Shown here: piece after piece, positions 8,807 through 58,380 of the stretch
Numbering within the stretch: position 1 is the stretch's first letter
Layout: each line of letters opens with the position of its first letter
Source of the DNA: Candidatus Wolfebacteria bacterium
GTDB taxonomy: Bacteria; Patescibacteriota; Minisyncoccia; UBA6257; UBA9933
Length of the DNA: 64,000 nucleotides
Assembly (NCBI GenBank): GCA_024654025.1
Contig: JANLIR010000002.1
Coordinates: 168,959 to 232,958 of the forward strand
Direction: 5' to 3'
Notes under the pieces: generated by a model
What the model was told of the DNA's origin: nothing
The model's database searches: none
Seen by the model: the letters and a program-made list of their open reading frames with translations, nothing else
Program-made: the position numbers and the translations under genes

Positions 8807-8841
8807 GCAACCTGTAACTTGTAACAATTAACTTATAACAA
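8807..8841. repeat. 5 x 7-nt degenerate heptad array
   Basis: GCAACCT GTAACTT GTAACAA TTAACTT ATAACAA. Confidence 0.65.
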
Positions 8842-8865
8842 ATCAGTTTTAAATATTTCTCCCTC

Positions 8866-8900
8866 TAGTTACCAGTCACTGGTTACCAATCACTAGTTAG
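8866..8900. repeat. 5 x 7-nt degenerate heptad array
   Basis: TAGTTAC CAGTCAC TGGTTAC CAATCAC TAGTTAG. Confidence 0.65.
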
Positions 8901-9006: not shown

Positions 9007-9273
9007 ATGTTAACCAAAACTCAAAAGAAAAGTTTGATTAAAGAACATGCTATTAACGAAAAAGACAGCGGTTCTATGGAAGTCCAAGTTGCTTTTTTAA
9101 CTAAGCAAATAAGCGAGCTTACCGGCCATCTTAAAAAAAATCCCAAGGACCATTCTTCCAGAAGGGGGTTGCTTCAAATGGTTGGCAAGAGAAAAAGATT
9201 TCTTGATTATCTTTCAACCAAAAGAAAATCTTCTTACGACAAGATTGTTAAAAAACTCGGACTTAAAAAATAA
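9007..9273 (+). CDS. rpsO: 30S ribosomal protein S15
   Basis: GSMEVQVAFLTKQISELTGHLKKNPKDHSSRRGLLQMVGKRKRFLDYL. Confidence 0.95.
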   Translation: MLTKTQKKSLIKEHAINEKDSGSMEVQVAFLTKQISELTGHLKKNPKDHSSRRGLLQMVGKRKRFLDYLSTKRKSSYDKIVKKLGLKK

Positions 9274-9281
9274 AATTCGGC

Positions 9282-9797
9282 ATGAGAAATAAAAATCAAA
9301 GAGTAGGCATTTTTATAGATGTCCAAAATCTCTATCATTCCGCTAAGCATCTTTACGGCGGCAAGGTAAATTACAGGGAGCTTATAAAAACTCTTGTTGA
9401 CGGCCGTCAGCTAATCAGGGCTTTGGGCTATGTAGTTAAAAGCGAAACCTCCGATAAATCAGCGCCTACCGGCGAGGCGTCGTTTTTTGAGGCTTTGGAA
9501 AAAGCAGGCGTGGAACTAAGAATGAAAGATATCCAGGTTTTTCCGGGAGGCGTTAAAAAAGCCAACTGGGACGTGGGTATGGCTGTTGACGCTCTGAGAA
9601 TGTCCAGTTTTTTGGATGTCATAATTTTAGTTACTGGCGACGGCGATTTTGAACCGCTTGTTGAATATATCCAGTGGGGCATGGGCAGGATTGTTGAAGT
9701 TGCCGCTTTCAGTTATAATACTTCATCGAAATTAAAAGAAGCGGCCGATCTTTTTATTAATTTAGAAAAAAATCCCAGAATAATGATAAAAAAATAA
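9282..9797 (+). CDS. NYN/LabA-like (PIN-like) domain protein
   Basis: RVGIFIDVQNLYHSA...ILVTGDGDFEPLV, the hallmark of NYN domain proteins. Confidence 0.8.
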   Translation: MRNKNQRVGIFIDVQNLYHSAKHLYGGKVNYRELIKTLVDGRQLIRALGYVVKSETSDKSAPTGEASFFEALEKAGVELRMKDIQVFPGGVKKANWDVGMAVDALRMSSFLDVIILVTGDGDFEPLVEYIQWGMGRIVEVAAFSYNTSSKLKEAADLFINLEKNPRIMIKK

Positions 9798-9798
9798 A

Positions 9799-11910
9799 AT
9801 GCTTGAATCCAAAGAATTTTCAATTGATTTTCAAGGGAAACCCTTGAGCTTAAAAGTTTCCAAAATTGCCGAGCAAGCCAACTCGGCTGTTTTAGGCCAG
9901 TACGGCGATACCGTGGTTCTAGTAACCGCCACGATGGGCGAAAAAGACCGCGATACGGATTATTTTCCTTTGGTAGTTGATTACGAAGAAAAATTTTATG
10001 CCGCCGGAAAAATTATCGGCAGCCGGTTTATTCGGCGCGAAGGCCGGCCTTCGGAAGAAGCTATTCTTTCCGGAAGAATGATTGACCGGGCGCTTCGGCC
10101 CTTTTTTAATTCACGGATGAGAAGAGATGTTCAAATTGTAATCACTATCCTTTCTTACGACGAAGAAAACGATCCGGATTTTATTTCGCTTCTCTCCGCT
10201 TCAACCGCCTTGGCAATTTCCGATATTCCGTGGAATGGCCCTGTTGCCGGAGTAAGATTGGCAAAAATGAAAGGCGGAAATTTAATGATTAATCCGACCA
10301 AGACGGAAATTAGCGGCAGTGAATTTTTATTCGAATCTTTTGTCGCCGGAAATGAAAGTAAAATAAATATGATAGAACTGGCGGCAAACGAAGTTTCCGA
10401 AAAAGAAGTTATTAGTTCATTTGAAACAGCCCAGGAAGAAATAAAAAAATTGATAAAATTCCAAAAAGAAATTATTCCCAAAATCAGCAAACCAAAAGCC
10501 GAAGTGCTTCTTGTTGAGCCGGATCCGAATTTAAAGCATAAAGTTCAGGAATTTTTAAAAAATAAATTAGAAAACGCAGTTTATGTTTCCGATAAAGCCC
10601 AGCAGCGCCATATTTTGCGAAAGTTAAAAGAAGATTTGAAAGAGCATTTGGTTTCTGAGGGGCTAATTCCGGAAGGAATTGATGCTATTGTAGAGGAAGA
10701 AATCGACGCGCTTATCCATAAAAATATTTTGGAAAAAGATATGAGGCCGGACTCTCGAAAACTCGATGAGGTCAGAGCGCTTTTCGGCCAAGTCGGTTTA
10801 TTTAAACGGCTTCACGGTTCCGCCTTGTTTTTTAGGGGTAGTACTCAATCGTTGGCAGTTACAACTTTAGCCGCTCCCGGACAGGAGCAAATGATAGAAA
10901 CAATGGAAGTTTCAGGGAAACGCAGATTTATGCTCCATTACAATTTTCCGCCTTATTCGGTTGGAGAAATAGGCAGACTGGGCGGACCGGGACGCCGAGA
11001 AGTCGGCCACGGCGCTTTGGCGGAAAAAGCCATAAGGTCAATAATCCCCTCAAAAGAGGAATTCCCTTATACTATCCGTGTTGTTTCAGAGATTTTGTCT
11101 TCAAACGGGTCATCTTCTATGGCAACTGTCTGCTCGTCGGTATTATCGCTAATGGATGCAGGTGTTCCTATTAAAAAGCCGGTGGCAGGCATTGCTATGG
11201 GAATTATTATGGGACAAGCGACAAGCGACAAGCGACAAGATTACAAAGTGCTGACCGATATTCAAGGCCCGGAAGATCACTACGGCGATATGGATTGTAA
11301 AGTTGCAGGCACAACCGACGGAATTACCGCCATACAAATGGACGTGAAAATTGACGGCGTTACCACCGAAATTTTAAATGACGTGTTAGTTCAAGCCAAA
11401 AAAGCCCGCCTTGAGATTTTGGAAGTTATGAAATCCGTTATTGATAAGCCTAGGGAAAAACTTTCAGAGTTCGCGCCAATTATTTTGACAATCAACATTA
11501 GTCCGGAAAGAATCGGCGAAGTTATCGGCCCGGGCGGAAAAATGATTAATATGATAATTAAAGACACCGGCGTTACGACAATAGATATCGAACAAACCGG
11601 AAAAGTTTTTGTTTCCGCCACTACTCCCGAACAAGCCCAAGCGGCGATTGGGTTCATCCAATCCTTAACAAAAGAATTCGAGGTCGGCGAAATTATTGAA
11701 GGCAAGATTATCAAACTTTTGGAATTTGGAGCCATTGTCGATTTGGGAGGCGGCAATGACGGAATGATTCACATTTCAGAAGTAAAAAGCGGATTTGTAA
11801 AAGATATTAATGAAGTTCTTAAATTGGGCGATGTTGTGAGGGCAAAAATTATAAAAGTTGAAAACGGAAAAATCGGACTTTCGATAAAAGCCTTGGCGGA
11901 ACAAAAATAG
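9799..11910 (+). CDS. pnp: polynucleotide phosphorylase
   Basis: Two RNase PH domains (GSALFFRGSTQ, SSNGSSSMATVC, DHYGDMDCKVAGT), then KH (GPGGKMINMI) and S1 (GAIVDLGGGNDGMIHISE). Confidence 0.97.
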   Translation: MLESKEFSIDFQGKPLSLKVSKIAEQANSAVLGQYGDTVVLVTATMGEKDRDTDYFPLVVDYEEKFYAAGKIIGSRFIRREGRPSEEAILSGRMIDRALRPFFNSRMRRDVQIVITILSYDEENDPDFISLLSASTALAISDIPWNGPVAGVRLAKMKGGNLMINPTKTEISGSEFLFESFVAGNESKINMIELAANEVSEKEVISSFETAQEEIKKLIKFQKEIIPKISKPKAEVLLVEPDPNLKHKVQEFLKNKLENAVYVSDKAQQRHILRKLKEDLKEHLVSEGLIPEGIDAIVEEEIDALIHKNILEKDMRPDSRKLDEVRALFGQVGLFKRLHGSALFFRGSTQSLAVTTLAAPGQEQMIETMEVSGKRRFMLHYNFPPYSVGEIGRLGGPGRREVGHGALAEKAIRSIIPSKEEFPYTIRVVSEILSSNGSSSMATVCSSVLSLMDAGVPIKKPVAGIAMGIIMGQATSDKRQDYKVLTDIQGPEDHYGDMDCKVAGTTDGITAIQMDVKIDGVTTEILNDVLVQAKKARLEILEVMKSVIDKPREKLSEFAPIILTINISPERIGEVIGPGGKMINMIIKDTGVTTIDIEQTGKVFVSATTPEQAQAAIGFIQSLTKEFEVGEIIEGKIIKLLEFGAIVDLGGGNDGMIHISEVKSGFVKDINEVLKLGDVVRAKIIKVENGKIGLSIKALAEQK
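11213..11240 (+). repeat. heptanucleotide tandem repeat inside pnp
   Basis: GACAAGC x3 (perfect) plus GACAAGA. Encodes QATSDKRQD. Confidence 0.85.
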
Positions 11911-12905: not shown

Positions 12906-13049
12906 GATTCACCCCCATAGGATTTCGCCATTTTTGGCGTGAAGAGTGTGCCGATTTAAATAAAAACTGATTACAAACTAAGTTAAAAACGCATTGCTGT
13001 CAATTTCCTTCCCTTTATACTTTTTGCTTTCTACTTTATACTATCCATA

Positions 13050-31483: not shown

Positions 31484-31567
31484 GCGCAGGTGGCGGAGTG
31501 GTCAATCGCAACAGACTGTAAATCTGTCGCCCTTGTGGCTACGGGGGTTCGAATCCCTCCCTGCGCA
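31484..31567 (+). tRNA. tRNA-Tyr(GUA)
   Basis: GCGCAGG TG GCGG AGTGGTCAA TCGC A ACAGA CTGTAAA TCTGT, long V arm, GGGGG TTCGAAT CCCTC CCTGCGC A. Confidence 0.9.
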
Positions 31568-31579
31568 CACTTTTTTGTC

Positions 31580-31760
31580 GCCGAAGTAGCTCAGTGGCAG
31601 AGCAACTGTTTTGCGTCAGCCCCGTTAGATATGCCGGGATAGCTCAGTGGTAGAGCAACTGTTTTGTAAACAGTAGGTCGTCGGTTCGAATCCGACTCTC
31701 GGCTCTCTCGGTGTATCTAACGGGGTAAATAGGTCGCGAGTTCGAATCTCGCCTTCGGCT
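31580..31760 (+). tRNA. Thr-like tRNA shell interrupted by a complete tRNA-Thr (outer gene; possibly a pseudogene)
   Basis: 5' part GCCGAAG TA GCTC AGTGGCA GAGC A ACTGT TTTG... 3' part ...TAAAT AGGTC GCGAG TTCGAAT CTCGC CTTCGGC T. The acceptor pairs perfectly. The 3' anticodon-stem strand is missing. Confidence 0.45.
31633..31704 (+). tRNA. tRNA-Thr(UGU), nested
   Basis: GCCGGGA TA GCTC AGTGGTA GAGC A ACTGT TTTGTAA ACAGT AGGTC GTCGG TTCGAAT CCGAC TCTCGGC T. Confidence 0.9.
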
Positions 31761-31770
31761 CTAGACAAAA

Positions 31771-31842
31771 GCCAGAGTAGTTCAGTGGTAGAACGCTTTC
31801 TTGGTAAGAAAGAGGTCGGGAGTCCGATTCTCCCCTCTGGCT
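31771..31842 (+). tRNA. tRNA-Thr(GGU)
   Basis: GCCAGAG TA GTTC AGTGGTA GAAC G CTTTC TTGGTAA GAAAG AGGTC GGGAG TCCGATT CTCCC CTCTGGC T. The T loop reads TCCGATT rather than TTCGAxx. Confidence 0.85.
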
Positions 31843-31919
31843 CAAAATTAACTTTTAACAAGCAATTCGTAACCAGTAACGGATATTTTTATAAAAACTT
31901 GAAAAGTTACGGATTCTGC

Positions 31920-31954
31920 GTTATAAGTTAATAGTTACAAGTTACTAGTTAATA
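31920..31954. repeat. 5 x 7-nt heptad array just upstream of rpmG
   Basis: GTTATAA GTTAATA GTTACAA GTTACTA GTTAATA. Confidence 0.75.
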
Positions 31955-31960
31955 ATTATT

Positions 31961-32131
31961 ATGGCTAAAACAAAAGCAAAAACCCAGTTAATTCGGCTAC
32001 GCTGTCAAATCTGCAAGAGGATTAATTATTACAGCAAGAAAAACAAAGGGTCAGCTGAAAAAAAAATTGAGTTAAAAAAATATTGCAAGTGGTGCCAAAA
32101 ATCCATAGTTCATAAAGAAGCCAAAAAATAA
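31961..32131 (+). CDS. rpmG: 50S ribosomal protein L33
   Basis: Hand translation: MAKTKAKTQLIRLRCQICKRINYYSKKNKGSAEKKIELKKYCKWCQKSIVHKEAKK*. CxxC...CxxC zinc ribbon. Below the ORF-track size cutoff. Confidence 0.9.
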   Translation: MAKTKAKTQLIRLRCQICKRINYYSKKNKGSAEKKIELKKYCKWCQKSIVHKEAKK

Positions 32132-32141
32132 TTTTGGCTTT

Positions 32142-32212
32142 GGGAGCTTAGTTAAGTGGCATAATAGTTGTCTCCAAAACAACGGTCGGGGGTTCGATTC
32201 CCTCAGCTCCCG
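32142..32212 (+). tRNA. tRNA-Trp(CCA)
   Basis: GGGAGCT TA GTTA AGTGGCA TAAT A GTTGT CTCCAAA ACAAC GGTC GGGGG TTCGATT CCCTC AGCTCCC G. Confidence 0.9.
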
Positions 32213-32281
32213 CGAAATATTCGATAAAAATCTCGTATTTTGTCAATTGATAGCCCACCCTTTTTTTGCTATACTTCCGAC

Positions 32282-32406
32282 GGAGCTCTGGTAGTGATTC
32301 TCGGATCAAATTATTTGCGAGGGGAGGATAAAAGTGCTTTAACTTCATTGTTAGGGTTGAATCCGCCCACCTGGCACTAGCCGGGATAATCCAACACCAG
32401 GGCTCC
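32282..32406 (+). ncRNA. candidate structured RNA, possibly SRP (4.5S-like) RNA
   Basis: An 11-bp closing helix GGAGCTCTGGT / ACCAGGGCTCC, plus GATT/AATC and CTCGG/CCGGG helices. The 5' (GCUCUGGU..UUCUC) and 3' (GCCGGGAU...CAGGGCUCC) strands resemble E. coli 4.5S. I could not recognise the apical GGAA/AGCA motif. Confidence 0.3.
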
Positions 32407-32570
32407 TTTTGCGCTTACGCTAACACGATACTAATATACTAATTTTACTAATGATACGAATTGGATACGAATTCGTATTTATTAGTATCATTCGAATGCA
32501 TTCGTCCTTCGACTTACTCAGGACGACCCTGAGTCGGTCGAATGGGTCGTATATTGGTATCACAATCACA

Positions 32571-33815
32571 ATGAGGCGTTTCTATTTTGATTACGCTGCT
32601 ACTACTCCGATTGACCCAGAGGTTTTAAAAGAAATAAATTCTAATTTAAGGAATAATTTTGGCAATCCCGGATCGCTCAATTTTTTCGGGCAAGCCGCAA
32701 TGGCAATGGTTGATAAATCGCGCGAAAAAATCGCCAACGCAATCAACGCTGATTTTCGGGAAATAATTTTTACCGGATCCGCGACGGAGGCAAACAATCT
32801 CGCACTCAGAGGAATACTAAAAAACGCCCGCCTGCGCCAAGGCTTCGGCGGGCAGGTAAAAACTAAAAGCAAAAAACCGAGAATAATTGTTTCAGCTATT
32901 GAACACGAATCTATTTTAGAAACTGCTAGAGATTTATCCGCCAGAGGCGGATCCGCCTTTGGCGGAGAAAAAGAAGGCGTGGAAATTATTTATTTGCCGG
33001 TTGATAAAAACGGCGTTGTGGATTTAAAGAAGTTAGAGAACGCATTGAACGAAAGAACGATTTTGGTTTCAATAATGTACGCGAACAACGAAACCGGAGT
33101 CATACAACCAATAGCAGAAATCGCCGAAATTATAAAAAAATTCAAAGAAAAAAAATACCCTAAACCCTACACCCTAAACCCTACACCCTATTTTCACACC
33201 GACGCTGTCCAGGCGTTCCAATTTCTGGATTGCAATATTAAAAACTTAGGGGTAGATTTAATGACTTTATCGGCTCATAAAATTTACGGACCAAAAGGAA
33301 TTGGCGCGTTATACGTACGCAACTCACAACTCACAACCTACAACTTACAACCAATAATTACTGGAGGAAAACAAGAATTTGGATTAAGATCCGGCACTGA
33401 AAACGTTGCCATGATAGCTGGTTTCGCCAAAGCAATTGAATTGGCAAATGAGAAACGGGAAAAAGAGAAAAAAAGAATTTTTTTGCTGGCGCAATATTTT
33501 TTTAAAGAAATAAAAAAGATTGTTCCGAGCGCCCAACTAAACGCAGGGAAGGCCAAGCGGCTGCCTAATATTTTAAATATCGCTTTCTCGGGTTATGACG
33601 CGGAGAGTTTGCTGATAAAATTTGACCTTAACGGCACTGCTGTTTCCCGAGGCTCGGCGTGTATGGCGCGTTCGTCTCAGTCGTCTTATGTATTAAAAGA
33701 AATGGGACTAAGTGAAAGCGAGCAGCGCTCCAGTTTGCGGTTTAGCTTCGGCAGATTTACAACAAAAGAAGAAATGTCTAAAGCCTTGAAAATTATAAAA
33801 AAAACATTAAAATAG
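32571..33815 (+). CDS. cysteine desulfurase (IscS/NifS family)
   Basis: YFDYAATTP, FTGSATEANN, SAHKIYGPKGIGALYVR (PLP Lys), RSGTENV, SRGSACM (active Cys). Start placed at MRRFYF. Confidence 0.9.
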   Translation: MRRFYFDYAATTPIDPEVLKEINSNLRNNFGNPGSLNFFGQAAMAMVDKSREKIANAINADFREIIFTGSATEANNLALRGILKNARLRQGFGGQVKTKSKKPRIIVSAIEHESILETARDLSARGGSAFGGEKEGVEIIYLPVDKNGVVDLKKLENALNERTILVSIMYANNETGVIQPIAEIAEIIKKFKEKKYPKPYTLNPTPYFHTDAVQAFQFLDCNIKNLGVDLMTLSAHKIYGPKGIGALYVRNSQLTTYNLQPIITGGKQEFGLRSGTENVAMIAGFAKAIELANEKREKEKKRIFLLAQYFFKEIKKIVPSAQLNAGKAKRLPNILNIAFSGYDAESLLIKFDLNGTAVSRGSACMARSSQSSYVLKEMGLSESEQRSSLRFSFGRFTTKEEMSKALKIIKKTLK

Positions 33816-55876: not shown

Positions 55877-56002
55877 ATATAGTAATATTTAAAAAGCAGC
55901 TATGCGCGTTTTGTGTTTTTAAGTTACGGGGCAAGCCGCTCGCCGCGGATAAATTTTCAATTTTTAATTTTACAACTTTCATTGAATTTTTAATTGGGAA
56001 AT

Positions 56003-57664: not shown

Positions 57665-57874
57665 TTAAAATAAGTTGATTAAAGACAAGGCGGCGAAAAT
57701 AACCGTTAAAACTACGGTGGCTATAAAAATTATTTTTTCGAATCCCCGTCGGGTTTGGTAATAAGAGCTTTCGCTTCCCCCAAAAACTCCCGAAAGGCCA
57801 GAAGATCTTTCCTGAAGTAAAATCAAAATAATCAATATTATCGAAATTATTATTTGAGCAATGGAAAACAACAT
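57665..57874 (-). CDS. secG: preprotein translocase subunit SecG
   Basis: IILIILILLQERSSGLSGVFGG. Two TM helices, 69 aa. Confidence 0.85.
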   Translation of the reverse strand: MLFSIAQIIISIILIILILLQERSSGLSGVFGGSESSYYQTRRGFEKIIFIATVVLTVIFAALSLINLF

Positions 57875-57883
57875 GATTTAATT

Positions 57884-58014
57884 ACAAATCCTAAATTCTA
57901 AGCACTAAACTCTAAACAAATTCAAATCACCAAAATCCAAAATTCAAAACGTTTAGAATTTAAAACATTTGAATTTTGATATTGTTTAGGATTTAGATAT
58001 TAGGATTTAGAGTT
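57884..58014. repeat. AT-rich imperfect long palindrome built from heptads
   Basis: Left arm AATCCTA AATTCTA AGCACTA AACTCTA... Centre AAAACGTTT near 57950. Right arm ...TTTAGGATTTAGATATTAGGATTTAGAG. Confidence 0.5.
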
Positions 58015-58380
58015 TTATTCCTTGTAAAGCCGTTTTGCGGAAAAATGAACTAAAAGATTGATAACGCTTATTAGTATCGTAGCATAAAGAAGCGGCGTTA
58101 GTCCAGATATTGTAATGTCAGTTGAAAAATAGTCAAGGATGTAGAGAGTAAGCGTGTTAACAATAATAATCCCCAATCCAAGAGTTATAAAGATTATCGG
58201 CGTAAAAATCAATTTTAAAATCGGTCTGATAAACATATTTATCAAAGTGAATATCAGTGTCGCGCTGGCAAGTCCATAAAGGCTGGCGCTGATACTGAAT
58301 CCGGAAATAAAATATTTAGCCGCCAAAAGCGCCAACACATTGGAAAAAAAGGAAAATATAAATTTTGAGATAATCCGCAT
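58015..58380 (-). CDS. 4-TM membrane protein (phage holin 4 / DUF360-like)
   Basis: FIRPILKLIFTPIIFITLGL. Four TM helices, 121 aa. Confidence 0.55.
   Translation of the reverse strand: MRIISKFIFSFFSNVLALLAAKYFISGFSISASLYGLASATLIFTLINMFIRPILKLIFTPIIFITLGLGIIIVNTLTLYILDYFSTDITISGLTPLLYATILISVINLLVHFSAKRLYKE

What the first reader, a model, noticed from the sequence alone, without database searches (positions are those of the whole stretch)
11213..11240. Perfect heptanucleotide tandem repeat inside the essential pnp gene
(GACAAGC)x3 followed by GACAAGA encodes GQATSDKRQD. It lies in the loop before the conserved VLTDIQG..DH.GDMD motif, where this protein is about 6 aa longer than E. coli PNPase (from memory).

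The unit length is not a multiple of three, so gain or loss of one unit by slippage would frameshift pnp. That is an unusual liability or switch for a core RNA-decay enzyme.
Basis: seen in the sequence. Interest (0 to 1): 0.6.

Follow-up and report, generated by a model that had tools for sequence, protein, structure and literature searches.

The report
Heptanucleotide repeat in PNPase surface loop
A perfect four-copy 7-base repeat really does sit inside the RNA-degrading enzyme PNPase of a Wolfebacteria genome, but it lies in a floppy surface loop that has picked up such repeats again and again in relatives, it is one of many 7-base repeats in these genomes, and nothing suggests it works as an on/off switch.

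Summary
Window 11213-11239 is a perfect (GACAAGC)x3.9 array inside a full-length PNPase gene (9799..11910) of a Candidatus Wolfebacteria genome. It encodes GQATSDKRQD and is far beyond chance. The insert is the low-confidence tip of a beta-hairpin just before the catalytic DxxxxxD motif, 6 aa longer than in E. coli PNPase.

It is not a one-off. In relatives this loop falls into length classes of about 7-9, 13-15 and 25-30 aa. Of 19 distinct long loops, 17 are 7-nt periodic at the DNA level, with different units in different lineages. Period-7 arrays are the dominant tandem-repeat class in Wolfebacteria-like contigs: 11.4 per 100 kb, against 0.47 in simulations. Two more lie in frame in the window's cysteine desulfurase gene.

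An excess of heptamer repeats in bacteria is already described, as is one coding heptanucleotide switch (E. coli NeuO). Nothing here supports a switch: only four units, identical copy number in two strains, and 13 of 13 array-bearing loci in frame.

Best reading: a young slippage-generated microsatellite in an indel-tolerant loop, kept in frame by selection.

Unexplained: near-identical pnp genes in two populations carry unrelated loop alleles with sharp boundaries.

The parts
11213..11240 (+). Heptanucleotide array: (GACAAGC)x3 plus GACAAGA. 27 nt are perfectly 7-periodic. Read in all three frames as GQATSDKRQD.
11209..11247 (+). Whole variable loop, codons 471-483 (MGQATSDKRQDYK), between the conserved strands AGIAMGII and VLTDIQG. 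Residues 472-481 are non-strand in the AlphaFold model, with pLDDT below 50 at 475-478.
11248..11295 (+). Conserved VLTDIQGPEDHYGDMD catalytic motif of the second RNase PH domain, immediately downstream of the loop. Used as the anchor for finding relatives.
9799..11910 (+). pnp ORF, 703 aa, a full-length PNPase (RNase_PH x2, KH, S1). The rpsO-NYN-pnp gene order is conserved in relatives.
33157..33190 (+). Same class of feature: an in-frame 7/14-periodic array (ACCCTAA ACCCTAC)x2.4 inside the cysteine desulfurase ORF 32451..33815, at a site that is 9-62 aa long in relatives.
33320..33351 (+). Same class of feature: an in-frame (CAACTCA)x4.6 array in the same cysteine desulfurase ORF. Relatives carry 7-aa-periodic peptides here (NLKPNTYNLKP and similar).
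13013..13042 (+). Same class, intergenic: a (CTTTATA)x4.3 array just upstream of the ruvA start, conserved in L122, L125 and L113.
55952..55981 (.). Same class, outside any ORF of 100 aa or more: (AATTTTC)x4.1.
57891..58010 (.). Same class, intergenic: period-7 arrays CTAAACT x3.9 (57891-57917), CCAAAAT x2.9 (57930-57949) and TTTAGGA x3.7 (57985-58010), lying between ORFs 57665..57874 and 58015..58380.

Best explanation
The repeat is a young coding heptanucleotide microsatellite at the solvent-exposed tip of a beta-hairpin in the second RNase PH domain of PNPase.

These Wolfebacteria-type genomes generate heptanucleotide tandem arrays at a high rate, most simply by replication slippage or short tandem duplication. 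Most arrays are intergenic. Inside genes they survive only under three conditions. The protein must tolerate an insertion there. The unit must read as stop-free, mostly hydrophilic residues in all three frames (A/C-rich units such as GACAAGC give D, K, R, Q, A, T, S). The net length change must be a multiple of three bases, which for a 7-nt unit means steps of three units, or 7 aa.

The pnp loop is such a permissive site and has been hit repeatedly across the clade. The window's array is a recently expanded or homogenised version. It lengthens the loop by 6 aa compared with canonical PNPases and probably has little effect on catalysis.

A one-unit slip would indeed frameshift pnp, so the array is a mutational liability that selection removes. 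It is not a regulated switch.

Shown: the array and its frame; its statistical significance; its loop location; recurrence at the same site with different units; clustering of loop lengths; the genome-wide period-7 excess; the array is too perfect for its age.

Inferred: slippage as the generating mechanism; selection as the filter; near-neutrality of the insert.
For: Array perfect and non-random.

Loop position: 6-residue gap against solved PNPases. AlphaFold strands 463-471 and 482-486, with pLDDT below 50 at 475-478.

Loop lengths in 163 unique relatives: 7-9 aa in 106, 13-15 aa in 45, only 6 at 10-12 aa, and single cases at 21, 25, 28, 29 and 30 aa. The modes at 8 and 15 differ by 7 aa, which is 21 nt or 3 units.

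17 of 19 distinct long loops have best DNA period 7 with self-identity of 0.5 or more, against 0.13% of 3,092 background 42-nt windows from the same genes.

Perfect or near-perfect arrays with other units at the same site: GACCAAC x4.4 (L146), CGAAATC x4.5 (L138), CTCAAAA about x5 (L171), and two adjacent arrays in L174.

A PNPase only 44% identical (L015) has a 7/14-periodic array in the same loop.

Short and long states change at least 26 times on the loop-masked NJ tree.

Seed or contraction relation: L175 ATA GACCAAC AAAATTATAAA equals L146 minus three units and one codon.

Unit turnover: L149 carries the same C-to-A change in two adjacent units relative to L146.

Youth: four-fold-site divergence between the window and L167 is 0.56, so about 7.6 neutral substitutions are expected in 27 nt on the window's lineage and none is observed. 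L167's loop, which aligns position by position, has 11 differences in 39 nt.

Genome-wide: period-7 arrays of 3 or more copies occur at 9.4 per 100 kb in the window and 11.4 in 710 kb of Wolfebacteria-like contigs, against 0.47 in simulations and 2.7 or less for any other period from 4 to 15 in the Wolfebacteria-like contigs. In the window, period 9 is the next commonest at 4.7, from 3 arrays.

47 distinct units among 87 arrays, so the arrays are generated locally and are not one dispersed family.

Two further in-frame arrays lie in the cysteine desulfurase gene, at sites that are also hypervariable in relatives.

Literature: heptanucleotide repeats are the most abundant 5-11 nt repeat class in most prokaryotic genomes and have been attributed to polymerase slippage (Mrazek et al. 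2007 as summarised in PMC4679880; also PMC4692102).
Against: No copy-number polymorphism of this particular array was observed. The only two strains available (window and L122) are identical, so slippage at this locus is inferred from comparative patterns and has not been seen directly.

The window's loop is 13 aa, which is +6 and not +7 relative to its nearest short-loop relative L097. It cannot be derived from that loop by simple expansion.

The same 23-nt GACAAGC-type array occurs in L169 at four-fold-site divergence of 0.9, with flanks about 78% identical. That is hard to explain by neutral decay and needs either parallel expansion from a shared seed or selection on the peptide.

L146 and L149 loops differ at 4 of 45 nt although four-fold sites differ by 39%, which hints at constraint.

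In two populations, near-identical pnp genes carry unrelated short and long loop alleles with sharp boundaries. Slippage cannot produce that.

L170 (a 9-nt in-frame repeat) and L173 (not periodic) are long loops that are not heptamer-based.
Confidence: 0.72

Rival explanations
1. Phase-variable contingency locus. Slippage by one unit switches PNPase off and on reversibly, as the AAGACTC repeat does for E. coli NeuO, giving the population a bet-hedging switch for RNA decay.
For: A non-3n unit lies inside the ORF, so one-unit changes do frameshift. Turnover of single units within arrays (L146 versus L149) would be easier if out-of-frame intermediates were tolerated for a time. From my own knowledge, pnp is not essential in E. 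coli or B. subtilis.
Against: There are only 4 units, whereas NeuO tracts span 3-53 copies with 20 the most common. The window and L122 have identical copy number. All 13 array-bearing metagenome loci found through a downstream motif are in frame; if 65.6% were OFF as in NeuO, the probability of that is about 1e-6. The gene is a core RNA-decay enzyme and not a surface or accessory gene. The array sits mid-gene in a loop and not at the 5' end.
Confidence: 0.06
2. Selected loop variation. The loop is a functional surface, for example a contact with a partner protein, a phage factor or RNA, under diversifying or balancing selection. Heptamer slippage and short-tract recombination only supply the variants, and particular peptides such as ATSDKRQ are retained because they work.
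For: An identical 23-nt array in the same frame is found in L169 although four-fold-site divergence is 0.9 and the flanks are diverged. L146 and L149 loops are more conserved than four-fold sites. Two loop classes, short '..EGK[HY]K V' and long heptamer-type, recur in distant clades. They coexist in backgrounds 97-99.6% identical, with sharp boundaries that include synonymous differences in the adjacent conserved codons, as expected for imported tracts that were then retained.
Against: Loop sequences are extremely diverse and of low complexity (Q, N, T, K, D, P, S). The tip has low model confidence. Canonical PNPases work without the insert. The same behaviour is seen in an unrelated enzyme, cysteine desulfurase, and in intergenic DNA, which points to a mutational cause rather than a pnp-specific one.
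Confidence: 0.17
3. Nucleic-acid-level element. The heptamer array acts in the mRNA or DNA, for example as tandem binding sites for a cold-shock or S1-type protein or as a structure that affects translation, as has been proposed for intergenic TAACTGA and GGGNATC heptamer repeats.
For: Heptamer direct repeats have been proposed as binding sites for post-transcriptional regulators, and CspB binds one protein per heptamer (PMC4679880). A preference for about four units is reported for GGGNATC repeats (PMC4692102) and is also seen here, where most arrays have about 3-5 copies. At least one intergenic array, upstream of ruvA, is conserved across diverged lineages.
Against: The unit differs between lineages at this very site (GACAAGC, GACCAAC, CGAAATC, CTCAAAA and others), and many relatives have no array at all. 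A conserved sequence-specific element is therefore unlikely. The units are not G-rich, so they cannot form a G-quadruplex.
Confidence: 0.04
4. Chance or assembly artefact.
For: None beyond the general tendency of short-read assemblers to mishandle repeats.
Against: 0 of 400 simulations reach this tract length. The 27-nt tract is far shorter than a sequencing read. The identical array is present in a second assembly, L122, that differs elsewhere at 2% of four-fold sites.
Confidence: 0.01

Closest known systems
E. coli K1 NeuO heptanucleotide (AAGACTC) coding repeat, a phase-variable contingency locus on prophage CUS-3
   Same: A 7-nt unit repeated head to tail inside an ORF and translated in all three frames. 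The full-length protein is made only when the register is right (copy number divisible by 3 in NeuO). Slippage is the accepted mechanism (PMC13001214).
   Different: NeuO has 3-53 copies at the 5' end of a phage-borne accessory gene for a surface modification. 65.6% of genomes are OFF, and neighbouring copy numbers are measurable within one culture. Here there are 4 copies, mid-gene in a core enzyme's loop, no out-of-frame allele was seen, and copy number is identical in both strains.
General excess of heptanucleotide simple sequence repeats in prokaryotic genomes (Mrazek et al. 2007, as summarised in PMC4679880 and PMC4692102)
   Same: Period 7 is the dominant class among 5-11 nt tandem repeats. 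It has been attributed to polymerase slippage. Most arrays are intergenic and about four units long. The window and its relatives show exactly this pattern.
   Different: Those surveys report that non-3n repeats are depleted in coding regions. Here arrays recur in frame at the same loop of a conserved enzyme across a clade. I found no report of this excess in Patescibacteria, although that search covers open-access full text only.
Dispersed heptamer families: cyanobacterial STRR, TAACTGA repeats of Beggiatoaceae and cyanobacteria, GGGNATC repeats of Xanthomonas and Nostoc
   Same: Short tandem heptamer arrays of 2 to about 6 units scattered through a genome, occasionally inside ORFs and read as 7-aa repeats, tolerated mainly at the periphery of proteins (PMC4679880 section 15).
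   Different: Those are single favoured heptamers repeated at many loci. Here there are 47 distinct units among 87 arrays, and six different units among the window's six period-7 arrays of three or more copies. That indicates local generation rather than one spreading or recognised motif.
Indel-tolerant surface loops of conserved enzymes
   Same: The insert sits at a beta-hairpin tip with low model confidence, is absent from canonical homologues, and varies in length among relatives.
   Different: Here the length variation clusters in steps of about 7 aa, and the inserted DNA is visibly 7-nt periodic. The mutational process that wrote the insertions can therefore be read off directly.

Membership tests
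Simple sequence repeat (microsatellite), heptanucleotide class | Three or more head-to-tail copies of a short unit (here 7 nt) with high identity, beyond chance expectation | tested here: met
   TRF: 3.9 copies, 100% identity. 0 of 400 simulations reach 27 nt.
Simple sequence repeat (microsatellite), heptanucleotide class | Belongs to a genome-wide over-representation of period-7 arrays | tested here: met
   9.4 per 100 kb in the window and 11.4 in related contigs, against 0.47 in simulations. In the related contigs all other periods from 4 to 15 are at 2.7 or less.
Simple sequence repeat (microsatellite), heptanucleotide class | Copy-number change by slippage among related sequences | tested here: inconclusive
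   Comparative signs are present: loop-length modes 7 aa apart, the L175/L146 seed or contraction relation, and the same substitution in adjacent units of L149. The only two strains carrying this array have the same copy number, and no read-level data were available.
Phase-variable contingency locus (NeuO type) | Repeat unit not a multiple of 3, located inside the ORF, so that slippage shifts the frame | tested here: met
   7-nt unit at codons 472-481 of the 703-codon pnp ORF.
Phase-variable contingency locus (NeuO type) | Both in-frame and out-of-frame alleles found among strains or genomes | tested here: not met
   13 of 13 array-bearing loci recovered independently of frame are in frame. 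The window and L122 are identical. In NeuO 65.6% of genomes are OFF. Caveat: assemblies show only majority alleles.
Phase-variable contingency locus (NeuO type) | Tract long enough for high switching rates | tested here: not met
   4 units here. Arrays inside ORFs in the clade have 3.0-6.1 copies. NeuO has 3-53 copies, 20 being the most common.
Phase-variable contingency locus (NeuO type) | Measured reversible switching of expression | not testable with these tools
   Needs read pile-ups or culture. The organism is an uncultured MAG.
Dispersed heptamer repeat families (STRR, TAACTGA, GGGNATC) | One specific heptamer repeated in tandem at many loci of the genome | tested here: not met
   47 distinct canonical units among 87 arrays. 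GACAAGC occurs as an array only in pnp within the window.
Polynucleotide phosphorylase (PNPase) | Domain order RNase PH, all-alpha, RNase PH, KH, S1, with the catalytic D..GDMD motif in the second PH domain | tested here: met
   Pfam RNase_PH x2, PNPase (below its cut-off), KH_1 and S1. E = 8e-194 to solved PNPase 5YJJ over residues 3-702. The motif VLTDIQGPEDHYGDMD is intact.

The most novel reading that the evidence does not exclude
Heptanucleotide slippage acts as a lineage-wide engine in Wolfebacteria and related Patescibacteria. It writes inserts, in steps of about 7 aa, into surface loops of core enzymes (PNPase, cysteine desulfurase and probably others). At the pnp loop the resulting alleles are not neutral debris. 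Two old allele classes, short '..EGKHK' and long heptamer-derived, are kept polymorphic and moved between closely and distantly related lineages by very short recombination tracts, under diversifying or balancing selection on an unrecognised interaction surface of PNPase.
Probability: 0.15. Interest if true: 0.65.

Novelty: new variant of a known kind. Interest (0 to 1): 0.4.

Why it matters
The repeat by itself is a small thing: a microsatellite in a tolerant loop. What it exposes is more useful.

First, it gives a readable record of how a non-triplet slippage process builds protein insertions under a reading-frame filter. Loop lengths cluster about 7 aa apart, the units differ between lineages at the same site, and the arrays can be seen at stages from perfect to decayed.

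Second, Patescibacteria are known for odd insertions in conserved genes. A strong genome-wide heptamer bias (about 24 times simulation) that also reaches coding loops offers a concrete mutational source for some of them.

Third, there are practical consequences. Such arrays are frameshift-prone sites that could produce apparent pseudogenes in MAGs. They are also fast strain markers for groundwater Wolfebacteria.

Fourth, the sharp replacement of loop alleles in otherwise identical genes, if it proves general, would be evidence for very short recombination tracts between uncultured CPR lineages.

Tried and rejected
It served only as a 'diverse bacteria' control and for L015.

(3) I asked whether the window has a general excess of perfect period-7 runs. 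It is only mild (3 against 0.6 expected for runs of 9 or more matches). The clear signal needed TRF-style imperfect arrays and more sequence.

(4) The idea that all longer loops are multiples of 3 heptamers was rejected in that strict form. P0064/L170 (21 aa) is an in-frame 9-nt repeat, and P0065/L173 (30 aa) shows no 7-periodicity.

(5) A recent recombinational import cannot explain the identical array in L169, because the identity stops at the array edges.

(6) Simple derivation of the window's loop from the short loop of its closest relative L097 was rejected. The two cannot be aligned, and they differ by 18 nt, not 21.

(7) A single mobile or recognised heptamer family was rejected on unit diversity.

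It was replaced by a codon-level comparison.

(9) Frameshifted alleles of this array were not searched for in the protein database, because full-length hits would swamp any such query.
Full report
**1. The observation**

Window 11213-11240 reads GACAAGC GACAAGC GACAAGC GACAAGA. TRF reports 11213-11239 as period 7, 3.9 copies, 100% matches. It lies in the ORF 9799..11910 (+), 703 aa, and in that frame encodes GQATSDKRQD, followed by YK-VLTDIQGPEDHYGDMD.

The ORF is a complete PNPase, with two RNase_PH domains, KH and S1, and E = 8e-194 to solved PNPase 5YJJ over its whole length. It is 100% identical to a protein annotated from a Candidatus Wolfebacteria MAG on a 248,723-bp contig.

The tract is the only perfect non-3n tandem tract of this size in the window. 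None of 400 second-order Markov simulations reached 27 nt at period 7 (maximum 24), and the analytic expectation is about 1e-7 per 64 kb.

An identical array is present in an independent contig, L122, from Hainich H41 groundwater. L122 differs from the window at 6 of 295 four-fold sites. The array is therefore real, non-random and not an assembly artefact.

**2. Where it sits in the protein**

An AlphaFold model (mean pLDDT 78.7) has strands at 463-471 and 482-486. Residues 472-481, exactly the part encoded by the array, are non-strand, and pLDDT is below 50 at 475-478 while the flanks score about 86-93. The array therefore encodes the flexible tip of a beta-hairpin immediately before the catalytic motif.

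**3. The same loop in relatives**

Among 163 unique relatives the loop between AGIAMG[LI]x and [VI]LTDIQG has these lengths:
- 7-9 aa in 106 proteins
- 10-12 aa in 6
- 13-15 aa in 45
- 21, 25, 28, 29 and 30 aa in one each

The modes at 8 and 15 differ by 7 aa, which is 21 nt or three heptamers.

I obtained DNA for many of these through one metagenome scan with a degenerate pattern for the downstream motif and through look-ups of individual proteins. Of 19 distinct loops of 11 aa or more, 17 have 7 nt as their best period with self-identity of 0.5 or more. Only 0.13% of 3,092 background 42-nt windows from the same genes reach that level, and only 5 of 50 short loops do.

The units differ between lineages but sit in the same register:
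- GACAAGC in the window and L122
- GACCAAC x4.4, perfect, in L146
- CGAAATC x4.5, perfect, in L138
- CTCAAAA about x5 in L171
- NACAAAC in L168
- AAATCCW in L172
- GACCAAC x4 followed by nnnAGTC x5 in L174

A Patescibacteria PNPase only 44% identical (L015) has a 7/14-periodic array at the same loop. There are two exceptions: L170's 21-aa loop is an in-frame 9-nt repeat, and L173's 30-aa loop is not periodic.

**4. Dynamics**

On a loop-masked NJ tree, short and long states change at least 26 times.

L175 (IDQQNYK) reads ATA GACCAAC AAAATTATAAA. That is L146's array minus three units and one codon, a seed or contraction relationship. L149 differs from L146 by the same C-to-A change in two adjacent units, which indicates turnover of units within an array.

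The window's array is too perfect to be old. Four-fold-site divergence from L167 (P0004) is 0.56, so about 7.6 neutral changes are expected in 27 nt on the window's lineage, with a probability of about 5e-4 of seeing none. L167's loop aligns position by position with the window's and has 11 differences in 39 nt. Even since the split from L097 (divergence 0.27), about 3.7 changes would be expected. The array was therefore expanded or homogenised recently.

**5. Not specific to pnp**

TRF with identical settings gives these densities of period-7 arrays with three or more copies:
- 9.4 per 100 kb in the window
- 11.4 in 710 kb of Wolfebacteria-like contigs
- 3.3 in 393 kb from diverse bacteria
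- 0.47 in simulations

In the Wolfebacteria-like contigs every other period from 4 to 15 is at 2.7 or less. In the window itself, period 9 is the next commonest at 4.7, from 3 arrays.

Among 87 arrays there are 47 distinct units, so the arrays arise locally and are not copies of one motif. Arrays outside ORFs reach 8.3 copies, while those inside long ORFs have 3.0-6.1 copies. The ORF classification used here was crude.

The window's cysteine desulfurase ORF carries two further in-frame arrays, at 33157-33190 and 33320-33351. In its relatives these two sites range over 9-62 aa and 15-49 aa, and many carry 7-aa-periodic peptides such as NLKPNTYNLKP.

**6. What is already known**

Heptanucleotide repeats are reported as the most abundant 5-11 nt repeat class in most prokaryotic genomes and are attributed to polymerase slippage. 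Units that are multiples of three are favoured in coding regions (Mrazek et al. 2007 as summarised in PMC4679880; also PMC4692102, which reports a preference for four units).

Single-motif heptamer families (STRR, TAACTGA, GGGNATC) are mostly intergenic and are only rarely tolerated inside ORFs.

The archetypal coding heptanucleotide switch is NeuO. It is ON only when the copy number is divisible by three, has 3-53 copies, is OFF in 65.6% of genomes, and shows neighbouring copy numbers within a single culture (PMC13001214).

A full-text search linking such repeats to Patescibacteria found nothing relevant.

**7. Switch or liability?**

The frameshift logic is correct, but the marks of a contingency locus are missing. 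The tract has four units. The two available strains have identical copy number. All 13 array-bearing loci recovered through a downstream motif, regardless of upstream frame, are in frame. With a NeuO-like OFF fraction the probability of that would be about 1e-6.

The caveats are that assemblies report only majority alleles and that no reads were available. 'Essential' is also an assumption. From my own knowledge, pnp is dispensable in E. coli at 37 C.

**8. What remains unexplained**

(a) L156 (TSHEGKHK) and L147/L119 (VDQSQMSNINGQRYK) are 98-99.6% identical outside the loop, with four-fold-site divergence of 0.057. Their flanks are identical for more than 130 nt upstream and more than 60 nt downstream. 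Yet a block of 33 versus 54 nt cannot be aligned.

L135 and L176 repeat this pattern at 97.3% identity. The replaced block there includes synonymous differences in the adjacent conserved codons, CTT ACA GAT ATT versus TTG ACT GAT ATC. That is the mark of a very short imported tract from a diverged allele and not of slippage.

Short '..EGK[HY]K' loops are homologous across distant clades (L125, L097, L156). Two old allele classes therefore seem to circulate.

(b) L169 carries a 23-nt array identical to the window's, in the same frame, at four-fold-site divergence of 0.9 and with diverged flanks. Parallel expansion from a common seed such as AGC GAC AA (S-D-K/N is a common start of short loops) is the simplest reading, but selection on the peptide is not excluded.

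(c) L146 and L149 loops are more alike than four-fold sites predict.

**9. Verdict**

The finding is real. It is best explained as a young slippage-generated heptanucleotide microsatellite in an indel-tolerant hairpin tip of PNPase. It is one instance of a clade-wide and genome-wide heptamer bias, filtered in coding DNA by the reading frame and by loop tolerance.

It is a new variant of known kinds (heptamer repeat excess; coding heptanucleotide repeats) and not a new mechanism. The switch interpretation is unlikely. Interest is moderate, mainly for the clustered recurrent loop insertions and the sharp allele replacements.

Noticed in passing
window 33157-33190 and 33320-33351 (cysteine desulfurase ORF 32451..33815, +): Two more in-frame period-7 arrays, ACCCTAA/ACCCTAC x2.4 of a 14-nt unit and CAACTCA x4.6. 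Both sites are length-hypervariable in relatives (9-62 aa and 15-49 aa) and carry many 7-aa-periodic peptides. The unit ACCCTAA is a rotation of the plant-type telomere repeat CCCTAAA, presumably by coincidence.
   Followed up: partly
L156 vs L147/L119 (about 33-54 nt around the pnp loop); L135 vs L176: pnp genes 97-99.6% identical carry unrelated short (8 aa) and long (15 aa) loop alleles. The boundaries are sharp, the flanks are identical, and the adjacent conserved codons differ synonymously. This looks like very short recombination tracts exchanging two old allele classes.
   Followed up: partly
window 13013-13042 (also L122 5890-5919, L125 5394-5423, L113 6434-6463): An intergenic (CTTTATA)x4.3 array directly upstream of the ruvA start codon is conserved almost base for base in lineages whose four-fold-site divergence is about 0.46. 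It follows a TTGTCA motif and contains repeated TATACT, so it may be part of a promoter or leader rather than neutral slippage debris.
   Followed up: partly
window 8815-8899, 31920-31951, 55952-55981, 57891-58010: Further intergenic 7- or 14-periodic arrays with different units: upstream of rpsO, between tRNA genes, and between two small membrane-protein-like ORFs. Related contigs repeatedly show TTCTATA/TAGAATA-type arrays near pnp.
   Followed up: no
window 9282-9797 (+), between rpsO (9007-9273) and pnp: A 171-aa ORF sits between rpsO and pnp. In the relatives examined (L167, L168, L170, L173, L174, L175) the ORF at this position hits the NYN domain (PF01936, a predicted RNase-type fold), which suggests a conserved rpsO-NYN-pnp unit in this clade. 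The window's own ORF was not scanned against Pfam.
   Followed up: no
L170 (P0064) pnp loop: The same loop carries a different kind of repeat, an in-frame 9-nt repeat (GATAGGACT x3 then GATGAGTCC-like) encoding SDRTDRTDRTDKSDESDES. The site therefore also accepts triplet-compatible tandem repeats.
   Followed up: partly
window 31484-32213: A cluster of four tRNA genes (Tyr-GTA, Thr-TGT, Thr-GGT, Trp-CCA). The minus-strand 'ORFs' listed at 31625..31861 and 32148..32348 are just translations across these tRNA genes.
   Followed up: yes
L167, L168, L171, L174 (upstream of rpsO): A tyrosine recombinase gene (Phage_integrase with Phage_int_SAM_1, XerC/D-like) lies upstream of rpsO-NYN-pnp in several relatives. 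L167 and L174 also have a PaaX_M / weak Cas2-like ORF beside it.
   Followed up: no
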